A stretch of 54,988 nt of DNA, from the NCBI GenBank assembly GCA_021081985.1, contig GCA_021081985.1_3639.2; one strand, written 5' to 3'. Source of the DNA: a phage. The notes under the pieces are model-generated. The model made no database searches. It saw only the letters and a program-made list of their open reading frames with translations, and was not told the origin of the DNA. Below are positions 7,054 through 21,713 of the stretch, in pieces. Each line of letters starts with the position of its first letter. Positions within the stretch are counted from its first letter, which is position 1. A program made the translations under genes and the position numbers.

Positions 7054-8358
7054 CTACTTACCAGGGAAAGTCTCTTCATAAAACTTAACAAGACGTTGAT
7101 CAACGATAATATCTTTATCCCTGATCCTACGTAATAACCTTAATCCTTTTGCACTTGTTGCTCTGCTAAAAGCCACGTATGCCATGCCTGGTGCAAAAGT
7201 CCCATTGCCAAAGTCAACATTAACTTCCGGTAATGTTAATCCTTGTGCTTTGTGTATTGTAACAGCCCACCCAAGACGAATCGGCAAAGCCCTGTACTCA
7301 CCAATGATAATCTTCTCAATTTCTTCAGTTATTGTACCATCTGGGTTTTTCACCTTTATGGGGTTATACTCAACATTTTCCCACACATAAGGTTCTACGT
7401 CAACAATATCCCCATTTTCAAGACGGACTCTAACACTGTATCTACGTAGTTCAACAATCTCTCCACGGGAACCATTCACATAACTTGGTTCCTCCAGTCC
7501 TTTAGGGTCATTGACAGTAATCATCACCTGCGCCCCCTCTTTCAGGTACAACTCTTCCGGCACAGGTGTCTGGTTAAATTGCCCTGTCTTTTTTGCCTTG
7601 TAAACTGTTGGGATTCCAGGTATTGCATCAAAACGTTTTTTGTTTATTTTGTCTGCTGCTGCGTTTGTTGAGGTTATTGTTATAGCATCCAATGGTTTTC
7701 CCATGTTGTAGCAATAAGTATTCATAAACTCAACAATCTCTGGAATACGCTCTCCCTTGCGAAGGCAATTAAGAAGTGTTGAAAAATGAACACTACTTTG
7801 CCTGTAGATTTTATCAAGAAATACAGGATATGGGTTCAATTCTTTCCATGTTTTAGAAAAGCAACAAAGTTCTGTGTCGTGGAACTGGTAGTATATCTCT
7901 TTTTCTTCACTTTTTAAAACAGGTGGATTCTGTAAGAAATCCCCGAACATACACACCTGCAAACCACCGAAAGGCTCTTTGGGTTTTTTACGTGCCAGAC
8001 GACATTTCATGTCCATTTCCCAGAGTTTGTCTGCCCTGAACATACTTATCTCTTCAATAATAAGAATCTTCAGTGCTTTACTTTTAAGCAACTTCTTAGC
8101 CTTTGCCTTTATTTCCTCTGCATCTTTTTTAGTGGACACGCCTAATGAAAGTCCGAAAGCTCTGTGTGCTGTCATACCATCCACATTAATGGCAGCAGCC
8201 CCTGTAGGGGCCACTGTCAAAACTGAGCCTGCGTATAAGGATTGGATAGTTTTTATAGTATGACTCTTTCCAGCACCTGCATAACCACTGATAAACACAT
8301 TCTCACCTGACATTATAGCGCCGAGAGCATCTTCAACGCCAACCCCGTATTGAGACAT
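7054..8358 (-). CDS. dda: Dda-like SF1B DNA helicase (RecD/Pif1 family)
   Basis: 434 aa; Walker A GYAGAGKSH near the N-terminus, Walker-B-like LIIEEISM, C-terminal GWAVTIHKAQGLT and AYVAFSRAT motifs typical of Dda/RecD helicases. Confidence 0.7.
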   Translation of the reverse strand: MSQYGVGVEDALGAIMSGENVFISGYAGAGKSHTIKTIQSLYAGSVLTVAPTGAAAINVDGMTAHRAFGLSLGVSTKKDAEEIKAKAKKLLKSKALKILIIEEISMFRADKLWEMDMKCRLARKKPKEPFGGLQVCMFGDFLQNPPVLKSEEKEIYYQFHDTELCCFSKTWKELNPYPVFLDKIYRQSSVHFSTLLNCLRKGERIPEIVEFMNTYCYNMGKPLDAITITSTNAAADKINKKRFDAIPGIPTVYKAKKTGQFNQTPVPEELYLKEGAQVMITVNDPKGLEEPSYVNGSRGEIVELRRYSVRVRLENGDIVDVEPYVWENVEYNPIKVKNPDGTITEEIEKIIIGEYRALPIRLGWAVTIHKAQGLTLPEVNVDFGNGTFAPGMAYVAFSRATSAKGLRLLRRIRDKDIIVDQRLVKFYEETFPGK

Positions 8359-9371
8359 CAGTCCTCCTTAGATTCTTGTAGATAAATCTCTTCAAGAATT
8401 TTACCCTGTACCCCAATGACAATAATATCTGGTGCACCTGCTGGTTTTGGTGTTCCTGTCAGAACTTCATAACGACAGCAACGGCATTTTTTCTGGTTAT
8501 AGTCATAAGGGACACTGACAATATCTGCCGGATCCACAGATACTTCTATAAGTACCCTTGAAGTCTTCTCAAAGGTAGCGGCATAGTCAATAGATGCAAC
8601 ATGCAAACCTTGGCTACATGTTCTATTGGGATTATCCTCAACCATATTACGTGGCATGGAAATAACTTGCCCTTTATAATTAGGAACTTTACCTGTATGG
8701 CAATCTCGTGGACCATCTACAGTTATCTTAATTTTCTTGTATGCCTTAATATTTCCGTTTTCAAGGATCTCAAGATCATTATGTTTTACAAAATCATAAA
8801 GCATTTTAACAGAAGCATACGACGGGTTGTGTAGCAACTTCTGCATGAATTTGACATATCGTTCGTCAAAGCAATCATTCTCAATATCTTTAATGATTCG
8901 TTTAGCAATACTGCTTTCCTGTTTTTGACCGTGCCAATACAAAACACTATCTATCAATACTAAATTATCACCAAAATCAATGGTCTTTTTCTTTTCTGCT
9001 TCTTTCTCTTCTAAAATACGTTGTACAGCAGCATCTATTCCTCCTGTCCAAAGGATAACACCAACTTCTTTGAAGATGGGGCTGCTACTATTTAGAGTAT
9101 ATTGTTCACCATTTAACAAAGTGATATGGATATTATCTTGGGTAACAAGGACAATTGGTTGTGCAAGAGTATGCACGGGCTTCATAATATCTACAGGATC
9201 TTCCTTAGCCTTTTTGGTTGTCGGCATTCCTTTTTTGGGTGCAACTGTCCAGCGTTTAAGAACATTTAGACCACGATCAACAACCACCATATTATTTTTC
9301 TTAGCGTATTCACGAGCTTCACGACGTGACATGAATAAAGGATTACTCACCTTTTTCTCCTTTGTTGTCAA
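8358..9371 (-). CDS. rIIB: rIIB-like protein
   Basis: 337-aa ORF immediately downstream of and overlapping the rIIA-like gene, the conserved rIIA-rIIB order. Assignment is by synteny and size, not a verified alignment. Confidence 0.45.
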   Translation of the reverse strand: MTTKEKKVSNPLFMSRREAREYAKKNNMVVVDRGLNVLKRWTVAPKKGMPTTKKAKEDPVDIMKPVHTLAQPIVLVTQDNIHITLLNGEQYTLNSSSPIFKEVGVILWTGGIDAAVQRILEEKEAEKKKTIDFGDNLVLIDSVLYWHGQKQESSIAKRIIKDIENDCFDERYVKFMQKLLHNPSYASVKMLYDFVKHNDLEILENGNIKAYKKIKITVDGPRDCHTGKVPNYKGQVISMPRNMVEDNPNRTCSQGLHVASIDYAATFEKTSRVLIEVSVDPADIVSVPYDYNQKKCRCCRYEVLTGTPKPAGAPDIIVIGVQGKILEEIYLQESKED

Positions 9372-11343
9372 TAAATTTACGATACTCTAGCATCTCTGGA
9401 GTATTGAAATGCCTAATATTAATGTATTTTAACAATGGGTAGCGATCTTTCTTAATTTGTAGCAGCTTTTTACCAATTCTCTTCTTGGCCTCTATCATCC
9501 ATAATGCTTTCTCACGGCTATCTTCGTAGCCAGGAACTGAACAATAACTGGGCATGTTTACCTTCATCTCCCATTTTGGGAAACTGGCTACCATCACGCC
9601 GAAGTAGCTAAGTTCTTTAACAATGTTATGATACTCATGGTCTTTCCCTACTTCTTGGTATAAATGATATTCAAGAAGGTTAGTTTTTGCAAGAGCATGA
9701 ATATCCTCCTCAGTTATAACCCGTGCCTCATCTGGCAGCCAACTTGATCTGTTTAAAGGCACAATATATAACTTACCAACCACACCGAGATTCTTGAGAA
9801 ATGTTGGTGGTTGCTTTCTCCAAGATGTTCTAAGATTGGAAACGTATCCTAACGGGCATAATCCTTTCACCTGCCCACCCCAGTATACCATAGCCGCCTC
9901 AATATCTTCAAATTGAGCACGGGAAATACGGGTTACATCTACGGAGCCATCTTGGTTGATTATCCAAACTTTATGACCTGGTTCGTAATAACCATAGCCA
10001 CCATACTTTTTATCTGCTTTTTGCACTGGTCGTTTTTCAAGTTCAGATAACTTGAAAATCATCCCTTCAAAGAATTTATCACTGTATAAGGACAGAGCGT
10101 AATCAGCATCGGTTATAAATGATCTCTTACCAAACTTCTCTGCGAGCCAGTTACATTTAGAGCGCACATACTTGTGATCATCATTGTAAACCAGTGGATG
10201 ACCATTCATCAACTCTGCGTATGAATATCTCTCATCCTTACCACGGCGTGAGCCTTCGCCACCATATGTTTCACAGTAATCTATGTAAGAACCATCAGTA
10301 TAATTCTTGAACTTATTTGCAATAAAAGCAGCACCATATTTTGTAGCGAAATAACCACCAACATATTTCATATGTTCAAGAACTGCTTTTAAAGTTGGCA
10401 GATCGCTTAATTCTTTTGTAATTTCTTCTCCACGAAGTCGGATAGCTTTCGTCACAAAACTTTCAAGTTTATCACGGAATCCTCCGTCATTCTTTCCTTC
10501 TACTGTCCATTCTCGGCCTGGGTCTACATTACAATCCCCAATAGGGATAGATACCGTCATCATGGGCAGTTCTTTACGAGTCGAGAGATAATCAGAGAGA
10601 TATGGTTGTTGCCCCATGATGACAACACTATCAGCGTTTCTCGACATGCTACTATACATCTCAAGAACCCAGCCAGTCTCCTCATCCTCATAACGATACT
10701 GAACAGGATAAGTACGATCTTCAATCTGCGTTTTAACAAAAGGATCATTAATGATATATGGAAATTTAGCATAGCGAAGGCATTTTACAATAGCCAGACG
10801 ATAAGCTCCTGTTTCCCAAGTGTTTACGTTAAATTTAACCTCTACACCATTCTCCTCTGTTGTTTCACAAGAAAATAAAGGCACAACCTCTGGTATTCCG
10901 CTGTTTTTGTGAACAGAGTATGTTGTTTTCACTCCATCTTTAACAGAAACAACTGTGAACATATCTGTTACTGCAAGAGGTGCTTTTGACCCAATACCTT
11001 TCGCGCCAATCAGATCATTACTGTTTCTTTTTGTGGACTCACCAATCATCATGAATGTACGTGTTACCATCTCATGATCCATACCTAACCCTGTATCCTT
11101 AACAGAATACCAAGGTTCCAAGTCTGTTGGTGAGTGGATGATGATGGGTTTATCAGAACACCCTGCCTCTGTATGAGCATCTACAGCGTTGAAGAGAGGC
11201 TCTCGTACTGCTGCTAAAGTTTTATCTTTATAAATTCCATCGATAAGAATACTGAAAGTCTCAGGATTCATTGCAATTGATGCTTGGTATCTTTCTACGT
11301 TCCCAGTTACCTGGACTTTGTTGTCAGATCTTTGAATAATCAT
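9343..11343 (-). CDS. rIIA: rIIA-like protein with GHKL/HATPase_c ATP-binding domain
   Basis: 666 aa; N-box REPLFNAVDA, G1 box DTGLGMD and G2 box GAKGIGSKA of the GHKL ATPase fold, as in phage rIIA; followed by the rIIB-like gene. Confidence 0.6.
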   Translation of the reverse strand: MIIQRSDNKVQVTGNVERYQASIAMNPETFSILIDGIYKDKTLAAVREPLFNAVDAHTEAGCSDKPIIIHSPTDLEPWYSVKDTGLGMDHEMVTRTFMMIGESTKRNSNDLIGAKGIGSKAPLAVTDMFTVVSVKDGVKTTYSVHKNSGIPEVVPLFSCETTEENGVEVKFNVNTWETGAYRLAIVKCLRYAKFPYIINDPFVKTQIEDRTYPVQYRYEDEETGWVLEMYSSMSRNADSVVIMGQQPYLSDYLSTRKELPMMTVSIPIGDCNVDPGREWTVEGKNDGGFRDKLESFVTKAIRLRGEEITKELSDLPTLKAVLEHMKYVGGYFATKYGAAFIANKFKNYTDGSYIDYCETYGGEGSRRGKDERYSYAELMNGHPLVYNDDHKYVRSKCNWLAEKFGKRSFITDADYALSLYSDKFFEGMIFKLSELEKRPVQKADKKYGGYGYYEPGHKVWIINQDGSVDVTRISRAQFEDIEAAMVYWGGQVKGLCPLGYVSNLRTSWRKQPPTFLKNLGVVGKLYIVPLNRSSWLPDEARVITEEDIHALAKTNLLEYHLYQEVGKDHEYHNIVKELSYFGVMVASFPKWEMKVNMPSYCSVPGYEDSREKALWMIEAKKRIGKKLLQIKKDRYPLLKYINIRHFNTPEMLEYRKFIDNKGEKGE

Positions 11344-11363
11344 TCAATACCTCTATGAACTAA

Positions 11364-11882
11364 TTATGCGTCAGGATGCTTGTAAAAAATATGATTCCCA
11401 ACCTTCACTGTTTTCACCATAACTTTTGCCCAAGATGGCCTAACAGTAGTTGCATGATAGTACGTTGCTGATTTTGTGTAGTCAAGAGCTTTGTATAAAC
11501 TTTTGTGGTCTTTATGCAATCTTATCAATATTTTAGCATAAAATTTAGCTCTTAACCATCTATCCTTTTCATAGACTTTAAAGGATTGCCCACCGAATGT
11601 CCAAGAGAATTGCCCTCGCTGATAAACTATTTTCTTGATAGTATGCGGGAAATTCTTGTCATCTTTTCTATTCAATGTGACAAAAGCGACACCCATCATT
11701 CCATAATCACCTTCTCCTCTTCCCTCTTTATACAAGTTACAGGCAAGAATATTAAGCTCTGTATCATTCTTCTTGCAAATGTGAAGAACTTGGGGCTTCT
11801 TTGCACTTTCTTTGGCTAGAACAGGGGTAATAGACAGAGAAAGTGCACAGCAAACTGCAAATAATAAAGATCTTATTTTCAA
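11364..11882 (-). CDS. Cell wall hydrolase, SleB/CwlJ (Hydrolase_2) family, with N-terminal signal peptide; proposed TTG start
   Basis: LYKEGRGEG, GVAFVTLNR and RGQFSW motifs match the SleB-family signature. With a TTG start the N-terminus is MKIRSLLFAVCCALSLSITPVLA, preceded by GGAG; the ORF-track start at 11987 would run through the upstream intergenic hairpin. Confidence 0.6.
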   Translation of the reverse strand: MKIRSLLFAVCCALSLSITPVLAKESAKKPQVLHICKKNDTELNILACNLYKEGRGEGDYGMMGVAFVTLNRKDDKNFPHTIKKIVYQRGQFSWTFGGQSFKVYEKDRWLRAKFYAKILIRLHKDHKSLYKALDYTKSATYYHATTVRPSWAKVMVKTVKVGNHIFYKHPDA

Positions 11883-11923
11883 AACTAACTCCAGACAAAT
11901 AAGCCCCATAAAGGGGCTTTCTG

Positions 11924-12268
11924 TTAGCGATGGAAACGAATATCTCCAGACACTGTGTTTACACTTCCATGGATTGTATTTGCGCAAACATCACCAGACA
12001 CCGAAGATACATTGCCTAAGATATCTTTCTCAACATTAATATCCCCAGATGTTGAGATCACACCATTAGAGACATTTCCATAAACATTGATACCACCTGA
12101 TGTTGTACGTACCTCTTTAGCATCACCTTTGATAATAACTGTAATGTTTTTATCGTTTGTGGTATGAACTAAATCACCATTGATATAGACATTATCACCC
12201 TTAGTGGTGATAGAGATACTACCATTGGTATAGTTTCCAGAAATTGTATTACCATTAATCGTAATCAT
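11924..12268 (-). CDS. Beta-solenoid repeat protein (bactofilin-like), start trimmed to MITINGNT
   Basis: Repeating G-x-V/I-S-G-D-I/V units (GNVSNGVISTSGDINV, GNVSSVSGDV, GSVNTVSGDI); the N-terminal 36 aa of the ORF-track call look like out-of-frame readthrough. Confidence 0.4.
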   Translation of the reverse strand: MITINGNTISGNYTNGSISITTKGDNVYINGDLVHTTNDKNITVIIKGDAKEVRTTSGGINVYGNVSNGVISTSGDINVEKDILGNVSSVSGDVCANTIHGSVNTVSGDIRFHR

Positions 12269-12443
12269 TGTTTTGTTTCTCTTTAACAATAGGTGCTTTC
12301 TGAACAGAGTATACAAATGTTTTATTGTCTTCAATAAACTTTCTGCCCTGTTCTTCATCTTCAAAAATAATTGTGTCACACTTTGCCTTTAACATACCAC
12401 GTTCTACAGTTGTGTGTGTCGTAGAAACAATTAAAGCCATCAA
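12255..12443 (-). CDS. Hypothetical small protein
   Basis: 62-aa ORF between the RNA ligase and repeat-protein genes. Confidence 0.3.
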   Translation of the reverse strand: MMALIVSTTHTTVERGMLKAKCDTIIFEDEEQGRKFIEDNKTFVYSVQKAPIVKEKQNNDYD

Positions 12444-13474
12444 AACACCTCGTTAAGTTGTTCCATGTACCAACTACGGGCTTTATTTGTTGTAAATTTT
12501 GCCACGTCTTTCATAGAAAGAGAATTGGCTTCTAACACATCTGCTTCTTCTTTGTTGATATCGCGGTTAACCCATGCGATAAATGCCCCCAGAGATGCGA
12601 TGTCCAATCCAATTTCTTGCAACCCTTGTCGTAAACGGTTCTCAGTAACTGCATACTCCACAAAATCTTTGATAGATTGCAGTTTCACAGGATCAACGGC
12701 AGCCAGTGTTTTCACTTTAGAGACAGAATGTTTTTGCCCTTTCACTTTAAACCAAAGTGCAGAAACATGTGCCAAGTGGCGATCTTTAGGTGTCCATACC
12801 ACACCCTCACCAACACCAGATACGCCAAAATATTTACCTACTGGGCACTCTTTTTCTACACCTTCGGTAATCTGTGCAATTTCTGATTGCACTGTCTCTG
12901 GCATGTTAAAAGGAATATCCAGTTCCCACTTACCAAAAGTTAAAATATTATAAATACGTTGTTCTGGTAATCCAATGCCAAGAATATCGTCTAAGGCTAA
13001 CCATTTTCGATGGTCATTCTCTTTTCCTACTGCCACACGGAAAATAGTAAAGAAAGGCATGATTTCAGATACCGCAACACCTTTCTGGATACCTTTTCCT
13101 GAAAATTCCCCAGCAATTTCTACTGGGAACTTAAATTCAATACCCCGATCTTCGCAGATCTGCTTGACTTGCTCCAACAGGGGTTTATGGTCTTTTTCAA
13201 CCATAAAGGCCATAAACCCATAATTATCTTCTTCCAAAGACAAAACGCGTTCTTTGGACTGGTACACAACCTCATCTTCAGAATTAAAGACTACACGGCA
13301 ATTAGTCCCGTGAATTTTAACTGTTCCTACATAAGAAATGAGATATTGATCTGGAGAGGCAACCTTACGCTTTATATTGCCATTCTCATCACGACCATCA
13401 TAAGTCAGACGGTCATTAACCGCTCGGATAACGTTGCGAAATTGACTAGTGCTTGGGTACTTAGTTGCTTGCAT
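12440..13474 (-). CDS. RNA ligase, Rnl2-like (ATP-dependent nucleotidyltransferase)
   Basis: 344 aa; motif I lysine in VKIHGTN (the KxHGxN adenylylation motif of T4 Rnl2); size matches the Rnl2 family. Confidence 0.65.
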   Translation of the reverse strand: MQATKYPSTSQFRNVIRAVNDRLTYDGRDENGNIKRKVASPDQYLISYVGTVKIHGTNCRVVFNSEDEVVYQSKERVLSLEEDNYGFMAFMVEKDHKPLLEQVKQICEDRGIEFKFPVEIAGEFSGKGIQKGVAVSEIMPFFTIFRVAVGKENDHRKWLALDDILGIGLPEQRIYNILTFGKWELDIPFNMPETVQSEIAQITEGVEKECPVGKYFGVSGVGEGVVWTPKDRHLAHVSALWFKVKGQKHSVSKVKTLAAVDPVKLQSIKDFVEYAVTENRLRQGLQEIGLDIASLGAFIAWVNRDINKEEADVLEANSLSMKDVAKFTTNKARSWYMEQLNEVF

Positions 13475-13847
13475 TACTATCTTCCTTATTAATAAAGGTC
13501 ACACCAAGAGTGGCCTGGGCAAGAAGTTTCGTGATCTCCTGGCTCCATACAGGACTGGAGATAAAATGTTGTAATTGGAGGCTACCTAAGCGATAGGCGC
13601 TGTTCATCGTAATAGCATAGATTTCTCCATCGTGCATAATCATGCTTTCGACAACAGAAGTCCTGATATTAGAACCACTAAATCCACGCTTTTTGAGGTC
13701 ATCTGCTAAGTATCCGCAGATACAACGCACATCTTTTGTATAACCAAAACCGAAATAGGGTTCAGCACCAAACAGGATACCAGCGTATCTCTTCCCACAG
13801 ACATAGGTATCTTTAGATACGCCTGTTACAGATTTACTTTCCATCAT
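13461..13847 (-). CDS. Hypothetical protein
   Basis: 128-aa ORF; no motif recognised. Confidence 0.35.
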   Translation of the reverse strand: MMESKSVTGVSKDTYVCGKRYAGILFGAEPYFGFGYTKDVRCICGYLADDLKKRGFSGSNIRTSVVESMIMHDGEIYAITMNSAYRLGSLQLQHFISSPVWSQEITKLLAQATLGVTFINKEDSNASN

Positions 13848-14029
13848 TGTCCCTCCACATCGTCAATATCTTCCATACCATCTTGCCACAGAACTTCATA
13901 GCAAGCGTCATAAATTGCGCTCATAGCATCTTTACGATCTAACACATCTACAATTTTTGGATCAATACTTTTAATTGCTTCCGCAATTTTATCGTAAGCA
14001 ATATCAGGATGCATGTTCTTTTTTGCCAT
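13844..14029 (-). CDS. Hypothetical small protein
   Basis: 61-aa acidic ORF, translationally coupled to neighbours. Confidence 0.3.
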   Translation of the reverse strand: MAKKNMHPDIAYDKIAEAIKSIDPKIVDVLDRKDAMSAIYDACYEVLWQDGMEDIDDVEGQ

Positions 14030-14525
14030 CTGGGATCTCCTCTTCGTTTAAGACATAAATTGTCACATCACAATCATGGAGAACAGATTCTATCATAGTT
14101 TCTATGATTTTCCAATCCCCACCTGCTAGTCCAGCACCTATTTTTGGCAGCCCGATCTTATAATCAGACATAAAGCCATCTGTGTGCCTTTGCAAACAAT
14201 CTCGCATTGCTGCTAAAGAATCGTAAAGGGCGTTATAATTCAGATCCCTCACACCCATTCTACGCCCATTATAGCCGTATTGTGTGTACAGATTAAAACC
14301 CGCCAGCTTACCTTCGTTCATGACAGCCCAAGTATAACTGCCCAGTTTTGTTCGATCACCTTTCTCTGTCTTTAAATCTTCAGCATACATTTTTGGGAAT
14401 GTATTCTTTATTTCTTTAGCAATTCCAGACCCCATGGTGCAAAATGTATTACAACCATGAGCTATCACATTAACATCCCTTTTAAGTGCTGCCTCTATTA
14501 AGCAACCAACTTTATACTTAAGCAT
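14004..14525 (-). CDS. Macro-domain protein (ADP-ribose binding/processing), start trimmed to MLKYKV
   Basis: VIAHGCNTFCTMGSGIAKEIK glycine-rich ADP-ribose-binding signature and C-terminal GLPKIGAGLAGGDW match macro-domain proteins. Confidence 0.55.
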   Translation of the reverse strand: MLKYKVGCLIEAALKRDVNVIAHGCNTFCTMGSGIAKEIKNTFPKMYAEDLKTEKGDRTKLGSYTWAVMNEGKLAGFNLYTQYGYNGRRMGVRDLNYNALYDSLAAMRDCLQRHTDGFMSDYKIGLPKIGAGLAGGDWKIIETMIESVLHDCDVTIYVLNEEEIPDGKKEHAS

Positions 14526-14700
14526 TGTCTGATACCTCTTCGCATTCGTATGGATAGATATCCAGTCTTTTCCCATTCCATTCGCAAGAGTAACACTCAA
14601 GAAAACTACCATTAAATATTTCTTCTCTTACTTCAAGAATATCTCCTGTTTTTGGATATCCATCAACATCCGAAAAATCAGAAATCATTTTAACCTTCAT
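14518..14700 (-). CDS. Hypothetical small protein
   Basis: 60-aa ORF; its ATG overlaps the upstream stop as ATGA. Confidence 0.3.
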   Translation of the reverse strand: MKVKMISDFSDVDGYPKTGDILEVREEIFNGSFLECYSCEWNGKRLDIYPYECEEVSDNA

Positions 14701-14873
14701 TCACAACTCCTTTCAAGGAAGGCATTCATACTTTCCAATGCCTCGCTTTTATTTTTAGCACAAACAACAAACACACGCTTATTTTTATAGGTGTACCCAG
14801 CCATAACCATATCGGATCTTTCAATCCACCATTTCTCATGTAGCTGGTCTTTCTTAAATTTATGTTTTGCCAT
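14697..14873 (-). CDS. Hypothetical small protein (58 aa, not in the ORF track)
   Basis: Translated by hand as MAKHKFKKDQLHEKWWIERSDMVMAGYTYKNKRVFVVCAKNKSEALESMNAFLERSCE; ATGA overlaps at both ends. Confidence 0.3.
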   Translation of the reverse strand: MAKHKFKKDQLHEKWWIERSDMVMAGYTYKNKRVFVVCAKNKSEALESMNAFLERSCE

Positions 14874-15289
14874 CAACGATTATACCATACCACATGTGTG
14901 GCCCAGTCTGGCTTTTTATCCCATACTGAAACGTCAGATTCATAGCTATCGTTAGGACACCAGTATCCATTCCCATCTTCAGGGCTAAAAATCGCCGCTT
15001 GGACACCGAAATTCCAATCATCAAGATCCATCACCTTAGCTCCAGCGGTCTTAAAATTAGCATCTGTTTTAAAATGCTCTTTCAGAAGATTACTGACAGA
15101 TGGCATAGGCATATAAGCAATGACAGGCTCACAATCAAAGTAGAAAGACCCATTGATAACATGAACAATACTGTTAAATCCTTGATAGGATTCACAAATA
15201 CCGATCTCACCATCTGCCAAAACGACAAGCCATCTACCAACATCAAGATCTTTAACACCATTTGGTGTTTTTATCCACATATCATTCAT
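14873..15289 (-). CDS. Hypothetical protein, possibly DUF551-like
   Basis: 138 aa; W-I-K-T-P and VIAYMPMPS resemble the DUF551 pattern. Weak. Confidence 0.35.
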   Translation of the reverse strand: MNDMWIKTPNGVKDLDVGRWLVVLADGEIGICESYQGFNSIVHVINGSFYFDCEPVIAYMPMPSVSNLLKEHFKTDANFKTAGAKVMDLDDWNFGVQAAIFSPEDGNGYWCPNDSYESDVSVWDKKPDWATHVVWYNR

Positions 15290-15329
15290 TCAGGTATTCC
15301 TGGGAAAAGCAGCCATTAGGCTGCTGCTA

Positions 15330-16538
15330 TTAATTTAAAATTGCATCTACATCTTTTGCAAAGTTCTTGTGATATTCAGTAATAATCTGCATGACGACAG
15401 GATACTTCTTAAGTAACTTCGCTGGCAGTCTGTCACGAAGGCCATCTAACAAAATACCCTTCCCTGTGGAACTGTCATTAATAAACGTCATGAAGACAGA
15501 TGATACAAAATCGCGGTTGGAATGAGCATCATCTTTACCAAAGTTATCATACAGATATTGCAAGAAATTGGCTGAGAAGTCAATAACCTGATCATCTGTG
15601 TAGTTGGTATTCTTCATAGCCTTACGTAGCCAGATGCAACCTTGTGATCCTAGCGTCCACAATACATCAGAGCTATCAGAGCCAGTGTGTTCCTTAATTG
15701 AACCATCCATTACTTTCTCAATGGGGACCATATCAGCAACGCGAGTATGGTAATACCATAACTCTTTCATTAACGGCCCACCAATACACCCTTGCAAAGC
15801 AGCCATTGCAAGACGGGAAGTAAGATCACCATCCTCATACGCATACAGAATATCACTTGCAGTAACCCAAGTTCGTGGTGTGGCATATGCAGGACTGTTA
15901 ATCTCATACATGGCCTCGAAGTTTTCCAGTTTATCGGGATTGGCTTGGATAAAACCAATTACTGATGGATGCACATTTTTACGCAACGCATAATCCTGCA
16001 TCCACACAGAGGCATCGTAATCAAGTTCCACAACAATAAAACGGTTAGCCAAAGGAGCTTCCATCATGGTAACTGCTGTACCATCACCAGGACGGTTCCC
16101 TGCCGCTGCAAAAACTGCACCTTTTGGAAAGGTGTACTTACCAATTTTATGATCCAAAACAATCTGGAAAGCTACTTTCTGTAAGTAGTTATCAGCATGT
16201 AAAAGTTCATCAAGGAAAATAATACCTTCCCAATCTGGGTCTTCTGGCCAGAAATCTGGTAGCGCATAGACTGTACGTGTTTTTCCATTGTCGTCTGTTA
16301 CAGGAATCTGTACACCTACTACGTCTGTCGGATCTTTATCCGCAAGACGAAAATCAACGAGATTATCATCTCGTTCACCAAACATCTCATTGGCAACTTG
16401 CTTCATGACTTGACTCTTACCAAGCCCAGCACCACCAAACATCATAAGTGCTTTGTTTGCCTTCTTACAAAATTTCATGAGGCTTGGAATATCACGAAGT
16501 GTAACACGATGATCTTCAAAAATATTTCTACTAGACAT
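15330..16538 (-). CDS. AAA+ ATPase, MoxR/AAA_5-like
   Basis: 402 aa; Walker A GGAGLGKS, Walker B IIFLDELLHA, sensor AAAGNRPGDG; the architecture usually partnered with VWA proteins. Confidence 0.7.
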   Translation of the reverse strand: MSSRNIFEDHRVTLRDIPSLMKFCKKANKALMMFGGAGLGKSQVMKQVANEMFGERDDNLVDFRLADKDPTDVVGVQIPVTDDNGKTRTVYALPDFWPEDPDWEGIIFLDELLHADNYLQKVAFQIVLDHKIGKYTFPKGAVFAAAGNRPGDGTAVTMMEAPLANRFIVVELDYDASVWMQDYALRKNVHPSVIGFIQANPDKLENFEAMYEINSPAYATPRTWVTASDILYAYEDGDLTSRLAMAALQGCIGGPLMKELWYYHTRVADMVPIEKVMDGSIKEHTGSDSSDVLWTLGSQGCIWLRKAMKNTNYTDDQVIDFSANFLQYLYDNFGKDDAHSNRDFVSSVFMTFINDSSTGKGILLDGLRDRLPAKLLKKYPVVMQIITEYHKNFAKDVDAILN

Positions 16539-16773
16539 TCGTCTCGTTCCTTAAATCGTTCTTCTGCTCAAGATAACTTTCAATGATACTGTCTATATCT
16601 GCTGATTCAATATCAGCATACAGATTTGTAATACTTGATGCAAGGTCTTTGGCAGAAAAATTGTCTACTCTTTCTGCACCAAAAACTAAAAACCATTGTC
16701 GTCGTGTCATCCTCGCTCTAACAACGGTTTTTAAATACTCCGCTCTCTCTGAAAAATCAAGAGGTTTTACCAC
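16531..16773 (-). CDS. Hypothetical protein
   Basis: 80-aa ORF. Confidence 0.3.
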   Translation of the reverse strand: MVKPLDFSERAEYLKTVVRARMTRRQWFLVFGAERVDNFSAKDLASSITNLYADIESADIDSIIESYLEQKNDLRNETNV

Positions 16774-17123
16774 TTATCCACCCAAACTCTGTTCTCATCA
16801 CACCAGTCGTAGAACTCGTTCAAAGCTAGATTGAACTGCTGTAGAGGACTCACGATAAGGTTGGGGTTATCTTCTTTGCTACAGATTTCCAAGTATTCTT
16901 CATATGTGAGAATATGCTGCATTTCTTCAAGAATATCATACAACCACCCATCGAAGTCAGCATTCTCTTCATCAGTTTGCTTTGGTAAAAGTCGTTTTAC
17001 TCTTTTTACAAGCATGTCCACAAACAGGTGAATATTATCATCTGCCCAAGGCTCTACCTTACCTTCTACGGGATTACCTTTCCAGATATCACGTAAATCA
17101 AGTCGATGTTTCCACTGTGCCAT
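16767..17123 (-). CDS. Hypothetical protein
   Basis: 118-aa ORF, Trp-rich. Confidence 0.35.
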   Translation of the reverse strand: MAQWKHRLDLRDIWKGNPVEGKVEPWADDNIHLFVDMLVKRVKRLLPKQTDEENADFDGWLYDILEEMQHILTYEEYLEICSKEDNPNLIVSPLQQFNLALNEFYDWCDENRVWVDKW

Positions 17124-17124
17124 T

Positions 17125-17319
17125 TTATAACTCCTTAACAGATTCTAAATCAAGATATTCATCACCACCCACTCGTTTACCGTCTTTCTTACGGTATTTT
17201 GCCTTGCTTTCAAATGCTACCCAATAAGCACCTTCATCTTTTAACTTGTCTTCCCATACCCAACCGAACTGCTTTTTCCTAATGGTTCCTTTGTGGGTAT
17301 ATTGTTGTTTACAATACAT
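17125..17319 (-). CDS. Hypothetical small protein
   Basis: 64-aa basic ORF. Confidence 0.3.
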   Translation of the reverse strand: MYCKQQYTHKGTIRKKQFGWVWEDKLKDEGAYWVAFESKAKYRKKDGKRVGGDEYLDLESVKEL

Positions 17320-17320
17320 C

Positions 17321-17536
17321 CTAATCCTCCCATTTTATCCATAAAGGGTATTCTGCAACATGCACTTTCTTACCCTTTTTGTTAATAAAAGTATACTCAA
17401 CAAACTTTGCTATGTAAAACCTATTGTAATCCTCTGTACCTTTAACAGGACAGTCTGTTTTCCTTATCTCCACCCATTCTCTGTGGATCACCGCTTTGTT
17501 CTTTGGATCAAATGGATGTGGTTGATAAACATTCAT
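17321..17536 (-). CDS. Hypothetical small protein
   Basis: 71-aa ORF. Confidence 0.3.
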   Translation of the reverse strand: MNVYQPHPFDPKNKAVIHREWVEIRKTDCPVKGTEDYNRFYIAKFVEYTFINKKGKKVHVAEYPLWIKWED

Positions 17537-18033
17537 TATTTCCCCTCGAATCTTTTTCTTGCATCAGCAAGTTTAAGATGCATTTCATGGTATTTCTTTA
17601 ACCTTGCCAAATCCTTATCTGATAAGGATTTAAGACGTTTTACGTCCATATTGTCTTTTAAATCAGCGAGTTTTACACGAATCGCATCATAATTAGTACA
17701 GATGCCCTCAATGTACTCTTCTTCAGTCAGGCTCTGTTTCTTTGTTAGCAGAAGAACTGCATCTTTTACTCTGTTAGTGAACCCTAACATTACCAAATCG
17801 TAAGCTGTAACTTTAGTATCCTCAAGGATATCGTGAAGGACACCGATTGCCATTAGCTGTAAGTCATCATTACCAAGTTCATGCATCACCCTTAATGGGT
17901 GAAGAATGTAGGGCATTCCACCACGATCTTTTTGCTTAAGATGGTTTTCAGAGGCCAATTTTATAGCTAAAGCCAACTCCTGATGGGGTCTTAAATCTTG
18001 CATGTTACTGGGGACAGACTTCGATTGTGCCAT
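17536..18033 (-). CDS. HD-domain hydrolase, Mesh1/SpoT-like small alarmone hydrolase
   Basis: 165 aa; PYILHPLRV, VLHDILEDT and VKLADLKDN are arranged like the His/Asp metal ligands of the RelA/SpoT hydrolase domain. Confidence 0.65.
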   Translation of the reverse strand: MAQSKSVPSNMQDLRPHQELALAIKLASENHLKQKDRGGMPYILHPLRVMHELGNDDLQLMAIGVLHDILEDTKVTAYDLVMLGFTNRVKDAVLLLTKKQSLTEEEYIEGICTNYDAIRVKLADLKDNMDVKRLKSLSDKDLARLKKYHEMHLKLADARKRFEGK

Positions 18034-18851
18034 TCATATGCCTCTTGCATGTTAAAGGGTTTTATACCAATATTATCAAAATCTACAAGAGAATCAAGAA
18101 AAAATTCTCCTTTGTACCCAGCCATTTCTATCATTAAGCGTTCCTCTTGGGTAGGGATCTCCCCCAAAATAAGCTCTTTTAGCTCTTTTTCTACAACACG
18201 ATGATACATTACTTCCTGGGTATTACACACCAAGTAGTAGTGCGACTTCTTATTCTCTGCGTTTGGCGTGTTGGTTATCTTAATTCCAGCATGGTCTACA
18301 TAATCATACATCTTTGTTTGGTAACGCATTCCATAACAACCTACCAGGGAAAAGGGTCCACAACTGGAATTAATCTCCCTGATGTGGAGAATATCTGGGT
18401 TTGTTCTGACATAGGAAGCCTTTATGGAAAACATATTACCATCCCAATGCCCCAATTGGGACAAAACAGACAGGAATTTTTGTGTTCGTGCAGACAATGA
18501 TCTTGCTAAACACATTCCATAATTAAAGCCTTGGAAAGAGATTGTTATTTGCCCACAAGTAATATCATAGCTTGAAAACTCATGCGTTAAGTTTACGCTT
18601 GCCATGTAAGCACGCTCGTCAGCTTCAACATAATATTTCCAGTAGCATTTCCTATCCCGAGTATCAAAACACATAAGCACAGCATGTTTTATGAGTTCTA
18701 TTAAAGGGTTTGGTTCATGGTGGCGACTTTCAACTTCCCTTATAATGGCTTCACGGAGTACATTAAAATCTATTTTCATAGATTTTGTGTGATGCAGGTA
18801 GGCATCAAAGTAAGAAGAAATGTTTTCGTCAGGTATCTTTGCCATGGTCAA
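17991..18851 (-). CDS. Hypothetical protein
   Basis: 286-aa ORF upstream of the HD hydrolase; no motif recognised. Confidence 0.4.
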   Translation of the reverse strand: MTMAKIPDENISSYFDAYLHHTKSMKIDFNVLREAIIREVESRHHEPNPLIELIKHAVLMCFDTRDRKCYWKYYVEADERAYMASVNLTHEFSSYDITCGQITISFQGFNYGMCLARSLSARTQKFLSVLSQLGHWDGNMFSIKASYVRTNPDILHIREINSSCGPFSLVGCYGMRYQTKMYDYVDHAGIKITNTPNAENKKSHYYLVCNTQEVMYHRVVEKELKELILGEIPTQEERLMIEMAGYKGEFFLDSLVDFDNIGIKPFNMQEAYEWHNRSLSPVTCKI

Positions 18852-18917
18852 ACTCCAAAAATATTTTCATTGGTTATGAGGAATGTACAGAACTAAAAAA
18901 CAAAAGTCAACACTTGA

Positions 18918-18947
18918 CAAACTGAAAATTTGTGAGATACTACGAAT
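18918..18947 (+). promoter_or_regulatory. Putative promoter TTGACA-17-GATACT in the divergent intergenic region
   Basis: Lies between the minus-strand block ending at 18851 and the plus-strand gene starting at 18975. Confidence 0.35.
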
Positions 18948-18974: not shown

Positions 18975-19772
18975 ATGGACTGGAATAAAGAGTTTACAAC
19001 CAAAGAGATAAGGTATCTCAAAACACGACTCTTTTTCAAAAAGAGGAATACCAAAGCGAGAGGTATAGAGTTCAATCTGACAGAAGATGACTGGTTTATG
19101 ATGGGCAACGGATTACTTGGGAAAGGTGTTTGTGATTACACAGGCCTACCTTTTTCTGCGACACCTAATGACCCCCTCTACCCGTCTGTTGAACGAATAG
19201 ATGACAAAAAAGGGTATGTTCGTGGAAACGTTTGTGTAGTCGGTAAGAGAGCAAACCAGTTAAAAGATTTTCTTGTAGACAAAAAGAAAGCTCTAACGAT
19301 TGTAGATCCACTCGACATGGATATCGTCCAAGGAATGATGTTAAATATGTCAAAGGATCACTTGGAAAAGTTAAAACTTAAATACATACCTACGGAAACA
19401 GATATGAAAGAGACAGAGAACGTAATTATTGATGAGCAGGTTGAAGAGATGAAAGAAAAATCTCTTCCTGACGATGTTGAAATTGCACTTGCATACGCAA
19501 ACTACTGTAAAACATTTGCGGAAGCAGGTATGAATGTTAGCGTTACGTATGCACAATTTAAGGCTAAATATTCAAGAAACACCTGTTCTCTAACAGGGGA
19601 GAAGTTAACAAAAACACCAAAACCTATTCTCATTATGGATTTAGATCTTGGGTTCGCAAAAGACAACTTTATTATTGTTTCTGAAAAGATGGAAACAGCA
19701 TTAACACAACTCATGATCAATACGAAAATGAGTTTACCAAAAATCACAGCTATGCTGAATAAGGTGGTTTAA
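18975..19772 (+). CDS. HNH/AP2-like putative homing endonuclease with a duplicated module
   Basis: 265 aa; two copies of a C-x2-TG ... ID ... G-Y/F ... N module (CDYTGLPF...ERIDDKKGYVRGNV and CSLTGEKL...MDLDLGFAKDNF). Residues are degenerate relative to canonical HNH. Confidence 0.4.
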   Translation: MDWNKEFTTKEIRYLKTRLFFKKRNTKARGIEFNLTEDDWFMMGNGLLGKGVCDYTGLPFSATPNDPLYPSVERIDDKKGYVRGNVCVVGKRANQLKDFLVDKKKALTIVDPLDMDIVQGMMLNMSKDHLEKLKLKYIPTETDMKETENVIIDEQVEEMKEKSLPDDVEIALAYANYCKTFAEAGMNVSVTYAQFKAKYSRNTCSLTGEKLTKTPKPILIMDLDLGFAKDNFIIVSEKMETALTQLMINTKMSLPKITAMLNKVV

Positions 19773-19960
19773 TGAAAGATTTTCTACCAAAACCGTGTCC
19801 ATTTTGTAAAAATGATGCACTTTTGCTTAAACAGAAACGCTCTGGGCAAACAATATTTCACTACATTTACTGCCAGAAATGTGGAACATCTGGGCCACAG
19901 GCTCTGAGTGAGCCTACTGCTGTAAGTTGGTGGAATGTCGGTAATAAAGAGGTAAAATAA
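19772..19960 (+). CDS. Lar-family restriction alleviation protein (zinc ribbon)
   Basis: 62 aa; PCPFCKND ... CQKCG zinc ribbon and C-terminal AVSWWN fit the Lar family pattern. Confidence 0.55.
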   Translation: MKDFLPKPCPFCKNDALLLKQKRSGQTIFHYIYCQKCGTSGPQALSEPTAVSWWNVGNKEVK

Positions 19961-19961
19961 T

Positions 19962-20141
19962 ATGTTTGAAGAGATTCTTGGAAGGCCAGCTACCGATCAA
20001 GAAGCCCAGATGATTGAATCTGGAAAGAAACCAAATTTTAAAGTTGGTGATAGGGTTCGTTATAAAAATGCCAGAAACGTTATAACTTCTGTAGAGGCTA
20101 TAGTATTATTTATGTTCCCACACCAACCAACTGGAGGATAA
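19962..20141 (+). CDS. Hypothetical small protein (59 aa, not in the ORF track)
   Basis: ATG at 19962 preceded by AAAGAGGTAAAATAAT; translated as MFEEILGRPATDQEAQMIESGKKPNFKVGDRVRYKNARN... Confidence 0.3.
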   Translation: MFEEILGRPATDQEAQMIESGKKPNFKVGDRVRYKNARNVITSVEAIVLFMFPHQPTGG

Positions 20142-20276
20142 GTTCCGGTATGGGGAGCCAGATTAACTGGCGGTAATAATTTTATGCCGCTTGATACCAT
20201 AGAATTATTTACAAGTAAAAAATAACAAGTATAATAGGTTGTCGAAAGATAGCCTATTTTTGTATGGAGCATAATT

Positions 20277-21713
20277 ATGCAAAAAGACGAATATGAAATG
20301 ATTGCCAAGTTAGAGAAGGATGCTGTAAAAGTTATCCAATCGGCACGAATAGCTCTTTTAAAGTACAGACCATTTTACGGGACTTTGTTAAGTTCTCTAC
20401 CCTTAGTTGCTAACTGGAAATGGTTGCCAACAGCAGCGACTGATCACAAAAACCTCTACTTCAACCCTGAGTTTATTATGGGTATGCCTGAAGAAAGGAA
20501 GAAGAAGGTTTTTGAGCGTGTGGATAATCACCCCACAATGACACAACAAGAAAAAGATGACTATAAAGACTATGTGAACGTATTTTATCGTAAGAAAACA
20601 CCCAAAGAGGTTGTTGTTATTCTTATGCACGAGCTACGTCATATTACTAACGATCATTTATCCCGTGGAAAAGCATTTGATTCTAAAACCTACAACACAG
20701 CAGCAGATCATTATATTAACACGGATTTAGTGGTGTCTGATCTTGGGCCACGCTCCAGCCAGATGTGTTTCTTCCCAATGGGGAAACAGACAACCTTTGA
20801 CAAAGGTAAAGAGTTTGGGTTTATGGCTTATTGCTACTGTGATTTTAATTTCCACGGTAAGACAGCGGAGGAGATTTACAGTCTCATAAACAAAGGCCAA
20901 CCGTCTGTTGGTAAACCTATGGGCACACACATAGGTGATTATGATCAAGACAGCAATATCCTAGGATATGAAGATCCTCACCCAGTGCCAAGCCAAGCAG
21001 AAAAAGATGATAATATGTCGTGGTCATCTGGTCTTATCGAGGCAGCGATGGAAGCAGCGGGAGGAGAGGGGCCGAAAGAGGTGCGTGACGTTATTGCAAG
21101 AATGCGTAAACCACACATAAATTATCTTCAGATAATCAAACAGCGTATGCTTTCTCGGATCAAGTCTAACCTGACATACAGGAAACCATCTCGTAGGTCT
21201 GGATCTATGACACAGGCACTTCGGCAGTATGGAGCTATTGAAAAAAAACAGCATATTGTTTTACCAGGAAGGGAGTACGATAATACTATAGATATAGTTA
21301 TTGGCTTCGATGTGTCTGGATCAATTTCGAAGGCGAATTTAGACAAAATCTTCGGAGAAATTGTAGGATTATGCCAGCTTTACCGCGTTTTTCGCGTGAC
21401 ATTGTTCTGTTGGTCAACAAAAGTCGGAGAGGTTAAAGTTTATACACATGATAATATCAAGGAAATGCTTGATTATAAAGTAAATTCTACGGGTGGGACA
21501 CTTGCAGCATCGGCTTTTGAGTATATTGAAAATAACATTTTTGATGCAAAAGACGTTATTATTTTTACAGACGGGTATATAGAGGATTTAAGCCACAAGA
21601 AAAAAGATTGGGGACGCAAGTGGGATATTCTTTGGGTTATTTGTGGTCGCGGAAATAATAAATTTGTACCACCTTTCGGAAGGGCTGTAAATTTAGATGA
21701 ACACGCAAAATAA
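20277..21713 (+). CDS. VWA-domain protein with N-terminal putative HExxH metallopeptidase domain (DUF2201-like)
   Basis: 478 aa; HELRH zinc-binding-like motif in the N-terminal half; MIDAS motif D-x-S-G-S in VIGFDVSGSIS in the C-terminal half. Confidence 0.65.
   Translation: MQKDEYEMIAKLEKDAVKVIQSARIALLKYRPFYGTLLSSLPLVANWKWLPTAATDHKNLYFNPEFIMGMPEERKKKVFERVDNHPTMTQQEKDDYKDYVNVFYRKKTPKEVVVILMHELRHITNDHLSRGKAFDSKTYNTAADHYINTDLVVSDLGPRSSQMCFFPMGKQTTFDKGKEFGFMAYCYCDFNFHGKTAEEIYSLINKGQPSVGKPMGTHIGDYDQDSNILGYEDPHPVPSQAEKDDNMSWSSGLIEAAMEAAGGEGPKEVRDVIARMRKPHINYLQIIKQRMLSRIKSNLTYRKPSRRSGSMTQALRQYGAIEKKQHIVLPGREYDNTIDIVIGFDVSGSISKANLDKIFGEIVGLCQLYRVFRVTLFCWSTKVGEVKVYTHDNIKEMLDYKVNSTGGTLAASAFEYIENNIFDAKDVIIFTDGYIEDLSHKKKDWGRKWDILWVICGRGNNKFVPPFGRAVNLDEHAK

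What the first reader, a model, noticed from the sequence alone, without database searches (positions are those of the whole stretch)
18975..19960. HNH/AP2-like protein with internally duplicated module next to a Lar-like restriction alleviation gene
The 265-aa protein contains two copies of a roughly 45-aa module (C-x2-TG ... I-D ... G-Y/F ... N) that resembles degenerate HNH/AP2 DNA-binding units; canonical His residues are replaced, so it may be a DNA-binding derivative rather than a nuclease. It is immediately followed by a 62-aa zinc-ribbon protein matching the Lar pattern. The pair sits at the switch between two transcription blocks, a common landing site for mobile genes.
Basis: partly seen in the sequence, partly recalled or inferred. 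Interest (0 to 1): 0.4.

Follow-up and report, generated by a model that had tools for sequence, protein, structure and literature searches.

The report
Srd-like phage protein, PacI-type nuclease fold
The 265-aa gene is the rV5-like-phage version of phage T4's Srd host-takeover protein: one unusual (PacI-type) HNH nuclease domain that keeps its active-site residues, plus a decayed second copy, followed by an unrelated, lineage-specific Lar-like zinc-ribbon gene.

Summary
Both ORFs exist (18975-19772, 265 aa; 19772-19960, 62 aa) at a strand switch, and the internal repeat is real. It shows up only with profiles (P about 1e-5 to 1e-4) and in the predicted structure.

The interpretation needs correction. 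The window is a Vequintavirinae phage, 92% identical in DNA to Av-05. The protein is a homologue of T4 Srd (BLASTP 1e-12, N-terminal about 100 aa). Srd is reported to bind RNase E and speed host mRNA decay.

No AP2, NUMOD or Pfam HNH model matches, and there is no similarity to sigma-70. The gene is syntenic across genera, so it is not mobile. The Lar-like gene passes Pfam's threshold but occurs only in Av-05-like phages. No function was tested.

The parts
18914..18941 (+). Sigma-70-type promoter-like site (TTGACA, 16 nt, TG-n-GATACT, extended -10), 34 nt upstream of the Srd-like start codon, in the 123-bp divergent intergenic region.
   Evidence: 10 of 12 matches, TG present. Identical in Av-05 and TH18, and partly kept in more distant relatives. 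This is a consensus match only; function is not shown.
18975..19772 (+). Srd-like gene, 265 aa. Two His-Me finger domains joined by a disordered acidic linker.
   Evidence: Full-length match to phrog_3118, 2.5e-94. BLASTP against T4 Srd 1e-12. 98% identical to the Av-05 protein annotated 'anti-sigma factor'. AF2 mean pLDDT 87.
18975..19394 (+). N-terminal domain (residues 1-140). Srd-type, PacI-like His-Me finger with two extra C-terminal helices.
   Evidence: hhalign against T4 Srd 7.8e-12. phrog_1400 3.7e-14, phrog_3322 2.2e-19 and phrog_1035 1.2e-9. Strands at 70-74 and 86-90, helix at 91-101.
19191..19265 (+). Active-site-like segment E73-R74-I-D76 ... G80-Y81 ... N85 ... N94 ... K97. It aligns with PacI D92-R93 ... 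Y100 ... N104 ... N113 ... K116.
   Evidence: Alignment of the family profile to PacI 3ldy_A, E = 8.3e-4. Conservation in 330 domain instances: R74 325, Y81 327, N85 328, N94 321, E/D73 326.
19131..19133 (+). C53, a lone invariant cysteine. It corresponds to PacI C66, one of that zinc site's four ligands. The other three positions are K50, G90 and A93 here.
   Evidence: C53 is kept in 327 of 330 domains, and as C204 in the dead copy.
19395..19466 (+). Variable acidic linker (residues about 141-164), predicted disordered.
   Evidence: pLDDT below 50 for residues 144-160. This is a length-variable, gap-rich region in alignment A1.
19467..19769 (+). C-terminal domain (residues 165-265). A decayed second copy of the same fold. 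It retains C204, T207, D222 and N231, but has L219, I220, F227 and E240 at the positions of E73, R74, Y81 and N94.
19772..19960 (+). Lar-like zinc-ribbon gene, 62 aa (C9-x2-C12 ... C34-x2-C37). Its start overlaps the Srd-like stop (TAATG).
   Evidence: Pfam PF14354 36.9 bits, above the 28.6 cut-off. TIGR03655 37.0 bits, below its 39.6 cut-off. phrog_599 4.9e-11. BLASTP against Rac RalR/Lar E = 7e-6. Present in only six Av-05-like phage records.
19962..20141 (+). Third small ORF of the unit, 59 aa, function unknown (the phrog_10489 'tail protein' label is doubtful). Cut short by a TAA where relatives read CAA.
   Evidence: matches positions 1-57 of the 86-position profile; alignment with Av-05 and TH18, where the ORF is 87 aa.
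20233..20266 (+). Terminator-like hairpin plus T-run that closes the three-gene unit. It overlaps a promoter-like site (20208-20235) for the next gene.
   Evidence: Conserved in Av-05 and TH18. A pattern match only.

Best explanation
The 265-aa gene is the Vequintavirinae form of the phage T4 Srd family.

Shown here:
- It has two copies of a zinc-less, PacI-type His-Me (HNH) finger domain joined by a disordered acidic linker.
- The N-terminal copy is homologous to the N-terminal domain of T4 Srd. It keeps residues matching PacI's D92-R93, Y100, N104, N113 and K116: E73-R74, Y81 in the loop between the two strands, N85, N94 and K97.
- The C-terminal copy keeps the fold but has lost these residues.
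- The gene is a fixed, syntenic gene of this phage subfamily, placed first in a rightward gene block.

Inferred:
- It is made early from a host-type promoter and acts in host takeover like T4 Srd. Srd is reported to bind the catalytic N-terminal half of RNase E and accelerate host mRNA decay.
- The conserved PacI-like site is the working surface, binding (or possibly cutting) nucleic acid or engaging RNase E.
- The dead copy stands in for the second subunit of what is a homodimer in PacI.

The Lar-like gene downstream is a separate accessory gene specific to this lineage. It probably protects against type I restriction and is not a partner of the Srd-like protein.
For: Identity of the phage:
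- The window is 92% identical in DNA to Avunavirus Av-05.
- The protein is 98% identical to the Av-05 protein annotated 'anti-sigma factor'.

Homology to Srd:
- BLASTP against T4 Srd gives 1e-12.
- hhalign gives 7.8e-12.
- phrog_1400 'Srd' gives 1.2e-14. Reciprocally, T4 Srd hits this protein's own family phrog_3118 at 1.5e-16.

Fold:
- AF2 mean pLDDT is 87 for the full length and 92 for the C domain alone.

Sequence link to PacI and the active-site residues:
- A family profile hits PacI at E = 8.3e-4, with E73-R74/Y81/N85/N94/K97 aligned to D92-R93/Y100/N104/N113/K116.
- PacI coordinates its metal with an Asp and an Asn, and uses a Tyr in the loop between the strands in place of the His.
- These residues are at least 97% conserved in 330 domain instances. 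The wider family has 20,421 representatives at E <= 1e-3.

Duplication.

Synteny across genera.

Promoter-like site upstream.

Srd function as reported in the literature: both citing Qi et al. 2015.
Against: - Only the N-terminal ~100 aa are homologous to T4 Srd, at about 27% identity. The C-terminal halves are unrelated.
- It is not known which part of Srd contacts RNase E, so carrying the function over is uncertain.
- No assay was possible for RNase E binding, RNA decay or nuclease activity.
- Such strict conservation of an active-site-like motif fits an enzyme better than a pure protein-protein adaptor.
- The relative orientation of the two domains is undefined (pTM 0.51, disordered linker). 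The pseudo-dimer idea is therefore conjecture.
- Assigning PacI residue numbers to catalytic roles rests on the alignment plus review statements. The primary paper could not be read.
Confidence: 0.55

Rival explanations
1. It is an active tyrosine-dependent (PacI-type) nuclease or nickase that attacks host or competitor DNA or RNA. The N domain cuts and the dead C domain only helps binding. Any effect on RNase E would be secondary or absent.
For: Residues matching PacI's D92-R93, Y100, N104 and N113 are all retained and are near-invariant across 330 domains. PacI is the best structural match. PacI shows that this arrangement without a His can cleave DNA. Tandem copies that both keep the motif are common in the wider family: 76 of 248 proteins have two, and some have four.
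Against: The Cys4 zinc sites that stabilise PacI are missing; only C53 remains. As reported in the literature, the one characterised homologue, T4 Srd, acts by increasing RNase E activity on host mRNA. No nuclease assay exists for any member of the family.
Confidence: 0.27
2. It is a catalytically dead, DNA-binding HNH/AP2-type derivative carried on a mobile (homing-type) gene that landed at the strand switch.
For: It has a His-Me fold without the canonical His. The C-terminal copy is indeed degenerate. The small-ORF slot just downstream differs between lineages.
Against: No AP2, NUMOD or HNH Pfam model matches at E <= 10. The N domain retains residues matching the PacI-type catalytic set. The gene sits at the same position in three genus-level lineages, and 264 phage records hold a full-length copy. 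That pattern is the opposite of the patchy distribution of homing genes. No second copy occurs elsewhere in the window.
Confidence: 0.06
3. It is an anti-sigma factor, or a decoy of host sigma-70, or an anti-terminator, as GenBank records label it.
For: The annotations 'anti-sigma factor' (Av-05, AlexBoehm), 'anti-termination protein' (TH18) and phrog_4592 'decoy of host sigma70'. These derive from T4's 'postulated decoy' note.
Against: There is no detectable similarity to E. coli RpoD (BLASTP E = 1.5; hhalign P = 0.55). The fold is that of a nuclease-type His-Me finger. The T4 label is explicitly 'postulated', and the reported Srd activity concerns RNase E.
Confidence: 0.05

Closest known systems
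Phage T4 Srd (NP_049634; labelled 'postulated decoy of sigma factors', reported to activate RNase E)
   Same: The N-terminal ~100 aa are homologous (BLASTP 1e-12, hhalign 7.8e-12). They share the motif C-x-Y-x-G ... S-x-E-R-x-D ... G-Y ... G-N-V ... N. Both belong to the same network of PHROG families. Both are carried by large lytic myoviruses of enterobacteria.
   Different: T4 Srd has a single domain followed by a Lys-rich helical C-terminal half. This protein instead has an acidic linker and a decayed second copy of the domain. Identity is only about 27%. The RNase E activity has been reported only for T4 Srd.
[quoted passage not shown]
   Different: PacI has two Cys4 zinc sites per subunit and works as a homodimer. 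Here three of the four ligands of the aligned zinc site are gone. Two unequal copies are fused in one chain. No DNA cleavage has been shown.
T4 endonuclease VII / Pfam Endonuclease_7 (PF02945)
   Different: Direct profile-to-sequence comparison is not significant (P = 0.06). There is no CxxC...CxxC zinc site, no catalytic His and no dimerisation domain.
Lar / RalR of the E. coli Rac prophage (Pfam PF14354) - relates to the 62-aa ORF
   Same: A small four-Cys zinc ribbon, 29% identical over 49 aa (E 7e-6). It scores above the Pfam threshold.
   Different: It scores just below the NCBIfam TIGR03655 cut-off. It lies in a lytic phage rather than a prophage. No RalA-like antitoxin RNA was looked for. 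RalR has also been described as a DNase toxin, so the function of the family is itself unsettled.

Membership tests
T4 Srd family | Significant sequence homology to T4 Srd | tested here: met
   BLASTP 1e-12. hhalign 7.8e-12. phrog_1400 1.2e-14, and reciprocally T4 Srd hits phrog_3118 at 1.5e-16.
T4 Srd family | Full-length collinearity with Srd (N domain plus helical C-terminal half) | tested here: not met
   The match is confined to Srd residues 2-91, or positions 3-87 of the 251-position profile. The C half here is a second His-Me copy.
T4 Srd family | Binds the RNase E N-terminal half and speeds host mRNA decay | not testable with these tools
   Known only from the literature on T4 Srd.
PacI-type His-Me finger (classification group 20) | Beta-beta-alpha-metal fold closest to PacI | tested here: met
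PacI-type His-Me finger (classification group 20) | Asp/Glu and Asn as metal ligands, with a Tyr in the inter-strand loop replacing the catalytic His | tested here: met
   For the N domain, E73, Y81 and N94 align with PacI D92, Y100 and N113. They are near-invariant. This is not met in the C domain, which has L219, F227 and E240 at these positions.
PacI-type His-Me finger (classification group 20) | Structural Cys4 zinc sites | tested here: not met
   Only C53 (equivalent to PacI C66) is present. K50, G90 and A93 replace the other ligands.
PacI-type His-Me finger (classification group 20) | Metal-dependent DNA cleavage | not testable with these tools
   Requires a biochemical assay.
Canonical HNH (Pfam HNH, HNH_3, Endonuclease_7 and related models) | Match to a curated model, and a catalytic His at the end of strand 1 | tested here: not met
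   No Pfam hit at E <= 10 for the whole protein or either half. No NCBIfam hit. R74 occupies the His position.
AP2 / NUMOD DNA-binding modules | Match to the AP2 or NUMOD models, or that fold | tested here: not met
   No hit. Fold searches return His-Me nucleases, not AP2.
Sigma-70 decoy / anti-sigma factor | Similarity to sigma-70 regions | tested here: not met
   BLASTP E = 1.5 and hhalign P = 0.55 against E. coli RpoD.
Homing / mobile endonuclease gene | Sporadic presence among close relatives | tested here: not met
   Same position in Av-05, TH18, AlexBoehm and Klebsiella phage K54_rec3. 264 phage records hold a full-length copy.
Lar restriction-alleviation family (62-aa ORF) | Score above the curated Pfam PF14354 threshold | tested here: met
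   36.9 bits against a 28.6 cut-off.
Lar restriction-alleviation family (62-aa ORF) | Score above the NCBIfam TIGR03655 cut-off | tested here: not met
   37.0 bits against a 39.6 cut-off. A near miss.
Lar restriction-alleviation family (62-aa ORF) | Four-Cys zinc ribbon and direct similarity to Rac Lar/RalR | tested here: met
   C9, C12, C34 and C37. BLASTP E = 7e-6, 29% identity.
Lar restriction-alleviation family (62-aa ORF) | Alleviates type I (EcoKI) restriction | not testable with these tools
   Needs a plating assay.

The most novel reading that the evidence does not exclude
Srd-family proteins, T4 Srd included, may not be sigma decoys or passive adaptors. They may instead be zinc-less, tyrosine-dependent PacI-type nucleases or nickases, or nucleic-acid clamps that use that site. 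Their conserved E/D-R...Y...N...N centre would then drive host shut-off. On this reading the rV5-like version is a single-chain live/dead mimic of the PacI homodimer.
Probability: 0.25. Interest if true: 0.65.

Novelty: new variant of a known kind. Interest (0 to 1): 0.4.

Why it matters
T4 Srd is one of only three phage effectors listed in a 2016 review as acting on the host RNA-decay machinery. Its fold and working surface are not described in any paper I could find.

This work indicates that the Srd domain is a PacI-type His-Me finger that keeps a tyrosine-based active-site-like motif. That gives a concrete set of mutations to test: E73, R74, Y81 and N94 here, and by the alignment E63, R64, Y71 and N84 in T4 Srd.

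The domain also belongs to a very large family, 20,421 cluster representatives, that matched no Pfam or NCBIfam model in the members I scanned.

For annotation, the result shows that the labels now on this gene ('anti-sigma factor', 'anti-termination', 'HNH endonuclease') are respectively unsupported, unsupported and only half right.

For the window itself the result is modest. This is a conserved early gene of rV5-like phages, not a mobile element, and it has no functional tie to the neighbouring Lar-like gene.

Tried and rejected
- **Pfam and NCBIfam scans.** I scanned the whole protein, each half and T4 Srd at permissive thresholds. No HNH, AP2 or NUMOD model matched.
- **PDB sequence searches.** The single protein and the Vequintavirinae-only profile found nothing. 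Only a broad family profile reached PacI.
- **BLASTP of the N half against the C half.** Not significant and misaligned (E = 13). The repeat is visible only with profiles or structure.
- **N-domain profile against T4 endonuclease VII.** P = 0.06, not significant. The link to endonuclease VII rests only on the shared phrog_1035 hit and on fold.
- **Sigma-70 similarity.** None found, so the decoy idea is rejected at the sequence level.
- **Mobile or homing gene.** Rejected because of synteny and because the window holds no paralogue.
- **Srd-like and Lar-like genes as a functional pair.** Rejected. Vequintavirus has no gene between the Srd-like gene and the metallopeptidase gene. The Klebsiella phage has an unrelated 66-aa ORF in that slot.
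- **Extra domains or names for distant multi-copy relatives.** Pfam found nothing in 10 proteins. Cluster look-up gave no informative names.
- **Primary papers.** Neither could be read (Qi et al. 2015; Shen et al. 2010). Their content is cited second-hand.

Full report
**1. What is there**

The window holds ORF 18975-19772 (+, 265 aa) and ORF 19772-19960 (+, 62 aa). The stop of the first overlaps the start of the second as TAATG. Upstream, ORFs run on the minus strand from 7054 to 18851. From 18975 onward they run on the plus strand. The pair therefore does sit at a divergent junction.

The 123-bp intergenic region holds a sigma-70-like site at 18914-18941 (TTGACA, 16 nt, TG-n-GATACT). It is identical in the closest relatives. 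A terminator-like hairpin at 20233-20258, overlapping a second promoter-like site, closes a three-gene unit.

The DNA is 92% identical to Escherichia phage Av-05 (Vequintavirinae, Avunavirus) and about 91% identical to TH18 and three related records. In those records the 265-aa gene is labelled 'anti-sigma factor', 'anti-termination protein' or 'HNH endonuclease'.

**2. Is the internal repeat real?**

- C53-x2-T56-G ... I75-D76 ... G80-Y81 ... N85
- C204-x2-T207-G ... M221-D222 ... G226-F227 ... N231

BLASTP of one half against the other sees nothing (E = 13). Every more sensitive test agrees that the halves are related:
- Profile against profile gives P = 1.6e-4 and 1.8e-5, in the expected register.
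- The C-half profile matches the N-terminal domain of T4 Srd (P = 1.5e-5).
- The C half alone hits phrog_4592 over the same profile region as the N half.
- A family HMM built without the C half still detects it in the window protein, and in the Av-05, Klebsiella phage and AlexBoehm homologues (i-E 0.0025 to 6.5e-5).

AlphaFold2 (31-sequence alignment, mean pLDDT 87) gives two domains with the same order of elements. Each has a long helix, a short helix, a beta-beta-alpha unit and further helices. A disordered acidic linker at 144-160 joins them. The repeated unit is the whole domain of about 100 aa.

**3. What the domain is**

No Pfam or NCBIfam model matches, even at E <= 10. PHROGs puts the full protein in phrog_3118 (2.5e-94). 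It links the N domain to four other families:
- phrog_3322 'endonuclease' (1e-19)
- phrog_4592 'decoy of host sigma70' (6e-19)
- phrog_1400 'Srd anti-sigma factor' (1e-14)
- phrog_1035 'endonuclease VII' (2e-10)

Direct BLASTP against T4 Srd gives E = 1e-12, 27% identity. hhalign gives 7.8e-12 over Srd residues 2-91. T4 Srd hits phrog_3118 in return (1.5e-16), and T4 endonuclease VII hits the same part of phrog_1035.

**4. The active-site question**

An exhaustive search with the N-domain profile found 20,421 cluster representatives at E <= 1e-3. Many of these hold two, and up to four, tandem copies.

In 330 domain instances from the top 248 proteins, five positions are essentially invariant:
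- C53: 327 of 330
- R74: 325
- Y81: 327
- N85: 328
- N94: 321

E/D73 (326) and D/N76 (319) are close behind.

A profile of 37 diverse domains hits exactly one significant PDB sequence, PacI (E = 8.3e-4). The alignment puts E73-R74, Y81, N85, N94 and K97 on PacI D92-R93, Y100, N104, N113 and K116.

Reviews state that PacI lacks the catalytic histidine and that a tyrosine in the loop between the two strands takes its role. They also state that one Asp and one Asn hold the metal. Y100 is the only tyrosine in that loop of the aligned PacI segment. Assigning it the catalytic role is my inference.

So the N domain is not a generic degenerate HNH. It carries residues matching all those of the PacI-type centre. 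What it has lost is the Cys4 zinc site: only C53 (equivalent to PacI C66) remains. The C domain has L219, I220, F227 and E240 at the key positions and keeps only C204, T207, D222 and N231. It looks like a dead copy.

**5. Distribution and context**

tblastn finds the protein in 1015 phage records. Of these, 264 hold a full-length copy (Vequintavirinae and relatives). T4-like phages match only through the N domain of Srd.

In Vequintavirus AlexBoehm the gene is again the first gene after the strand switch, followed directly by the DUF2201 metallopeptidase/VWA gene. In a Klebsiella phage the slot after it holds an unrelated 66-aa ORF. The Lar-like ORF was found only in the six Av-05-like records.

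The Srd-like gene is therefore a fixed gene of the subfamily, not a mobile insert. The Lar-like gene is a variable passenger. No paralogue of the domain occurs elsewhere in the window.

**6. The Lar-like ORF**

- It has four Cys: C9, C12, C34 and C37.
- Pfam Lar_restr_allev scores 36.9 bits, above the 28.6 threshold.
- TIGR03655 scores 37.0 bits, just under its 39.6 cut-off.
- It is 29% identical to Rac RalR/Lar (E = 7e-6).

RalR is annotated as, and has been published as, a DNase toxin. The biochemical role of the family is therefore unsettled. Restriction alleviation here is inference only.

**7. How it most likely works**

Shown here: family membership, fold, duplication, retained and lost residues, and synteny.

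Inferred: early expression from a host-type promoter, and an Srd-like role in host takeover. T4 Srd is reported to bind the catalytic N-terminal half of RNase E and increase decay of host mRNA.

The near-invariant PacI-like site is the obvious candidate for the working surface. Whether it cuts nucleic acid, only binds it, or engages RNase E cannot be decided here. PacI is a homodimer, so the live/dead tandem may mimic a dimer within one chain. The model gives no fixed orientation between the domains (pTM 0.51).

The 'anti-sigma / sigma-70 decoy' label finds no support. There is no similarity to RpoD, and the T4 note itself says 'postulated'.

**8. Verdict**

This is a new architectural variant of a known but poorly understood family. 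Interest is moderate. It lies mainly in the indication that the Srd domain is a zinc-less PacI-type His-Me finger with an intact tyrosine-type motif, which makes Srd's mechanism directly testable.

Noticed in passing
window 19962-20141 (+): This 59-aa ORF (phrog_10489, labelled 'tail protein') stops at a TAA where Av-05 and TH18 read CAA and continue to 87 aa. The DNA downstream stays almost identical. This points to a recent nonsense mutation or a sequencing error.
   Followed up: partly
window 20208-20266 (+): A strong promoter-like site (TTTACA, 16 nt, TATAAT; 11 of 12 matches) overlaps a terminator-like hairpin with a T-run, just before the metallopeptidase/VWA gene. It is conserved in Av-05 and TH18. 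It may both end the three-gene unit and restart transcription.
   Followed up: partly
window 15330-16538 (-) and 20277-21713 (+): A MoxR-type ATPase (so named in Av-05) and a DUF2201 metallopeptidase plus VWA-like protein lie on opposite strands about 4 kb apart, on either side of the strand switch. From general knowledge, MoxR ATPases and VWA proteins usually work as partners. The 'HNH endonuclease' label of phrog_1314/RefSeq on the 478-aa protein looks wrong, because Pfam sees only DUF2201_N, DUF2201 and VWA.
   Followed up: no
window 17536-18033 (-): This 165-aa HD-domain protein matches phrog_990 and, weakly, Pfam HD_4. It is annotated as a ppGpp 3'-pyrophosphohydrolase in phage TH18. It may be a phage-encoded alarmone hydrolase.
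   Followed up: no
window 19131-19133 (C53) and 19584-19586 (C204): A single cysteine is almost invariant across the family (327 of 330 domains) and is kept even in the dead copy. The other three ligands of the ancestral Cys4 zinc site are gone. Its role is unexplained.
   Followed up: partly
related proteins P0118 and P0119 (827 and 852 aa, metagenomic): Some distant relatives carry four tandem copies of the Srd/PacI-type domain, all with the R...Y...N...N motif. The 10 multi-copy proteins scanned have no Pfam-recognisable domain. The Pfam and NCBIfam searches run here detected almost none of this 20,421-representative family: 1 of 37 diverse domains gave a weak Endonuclease_7 hit.
   Followed up: partly
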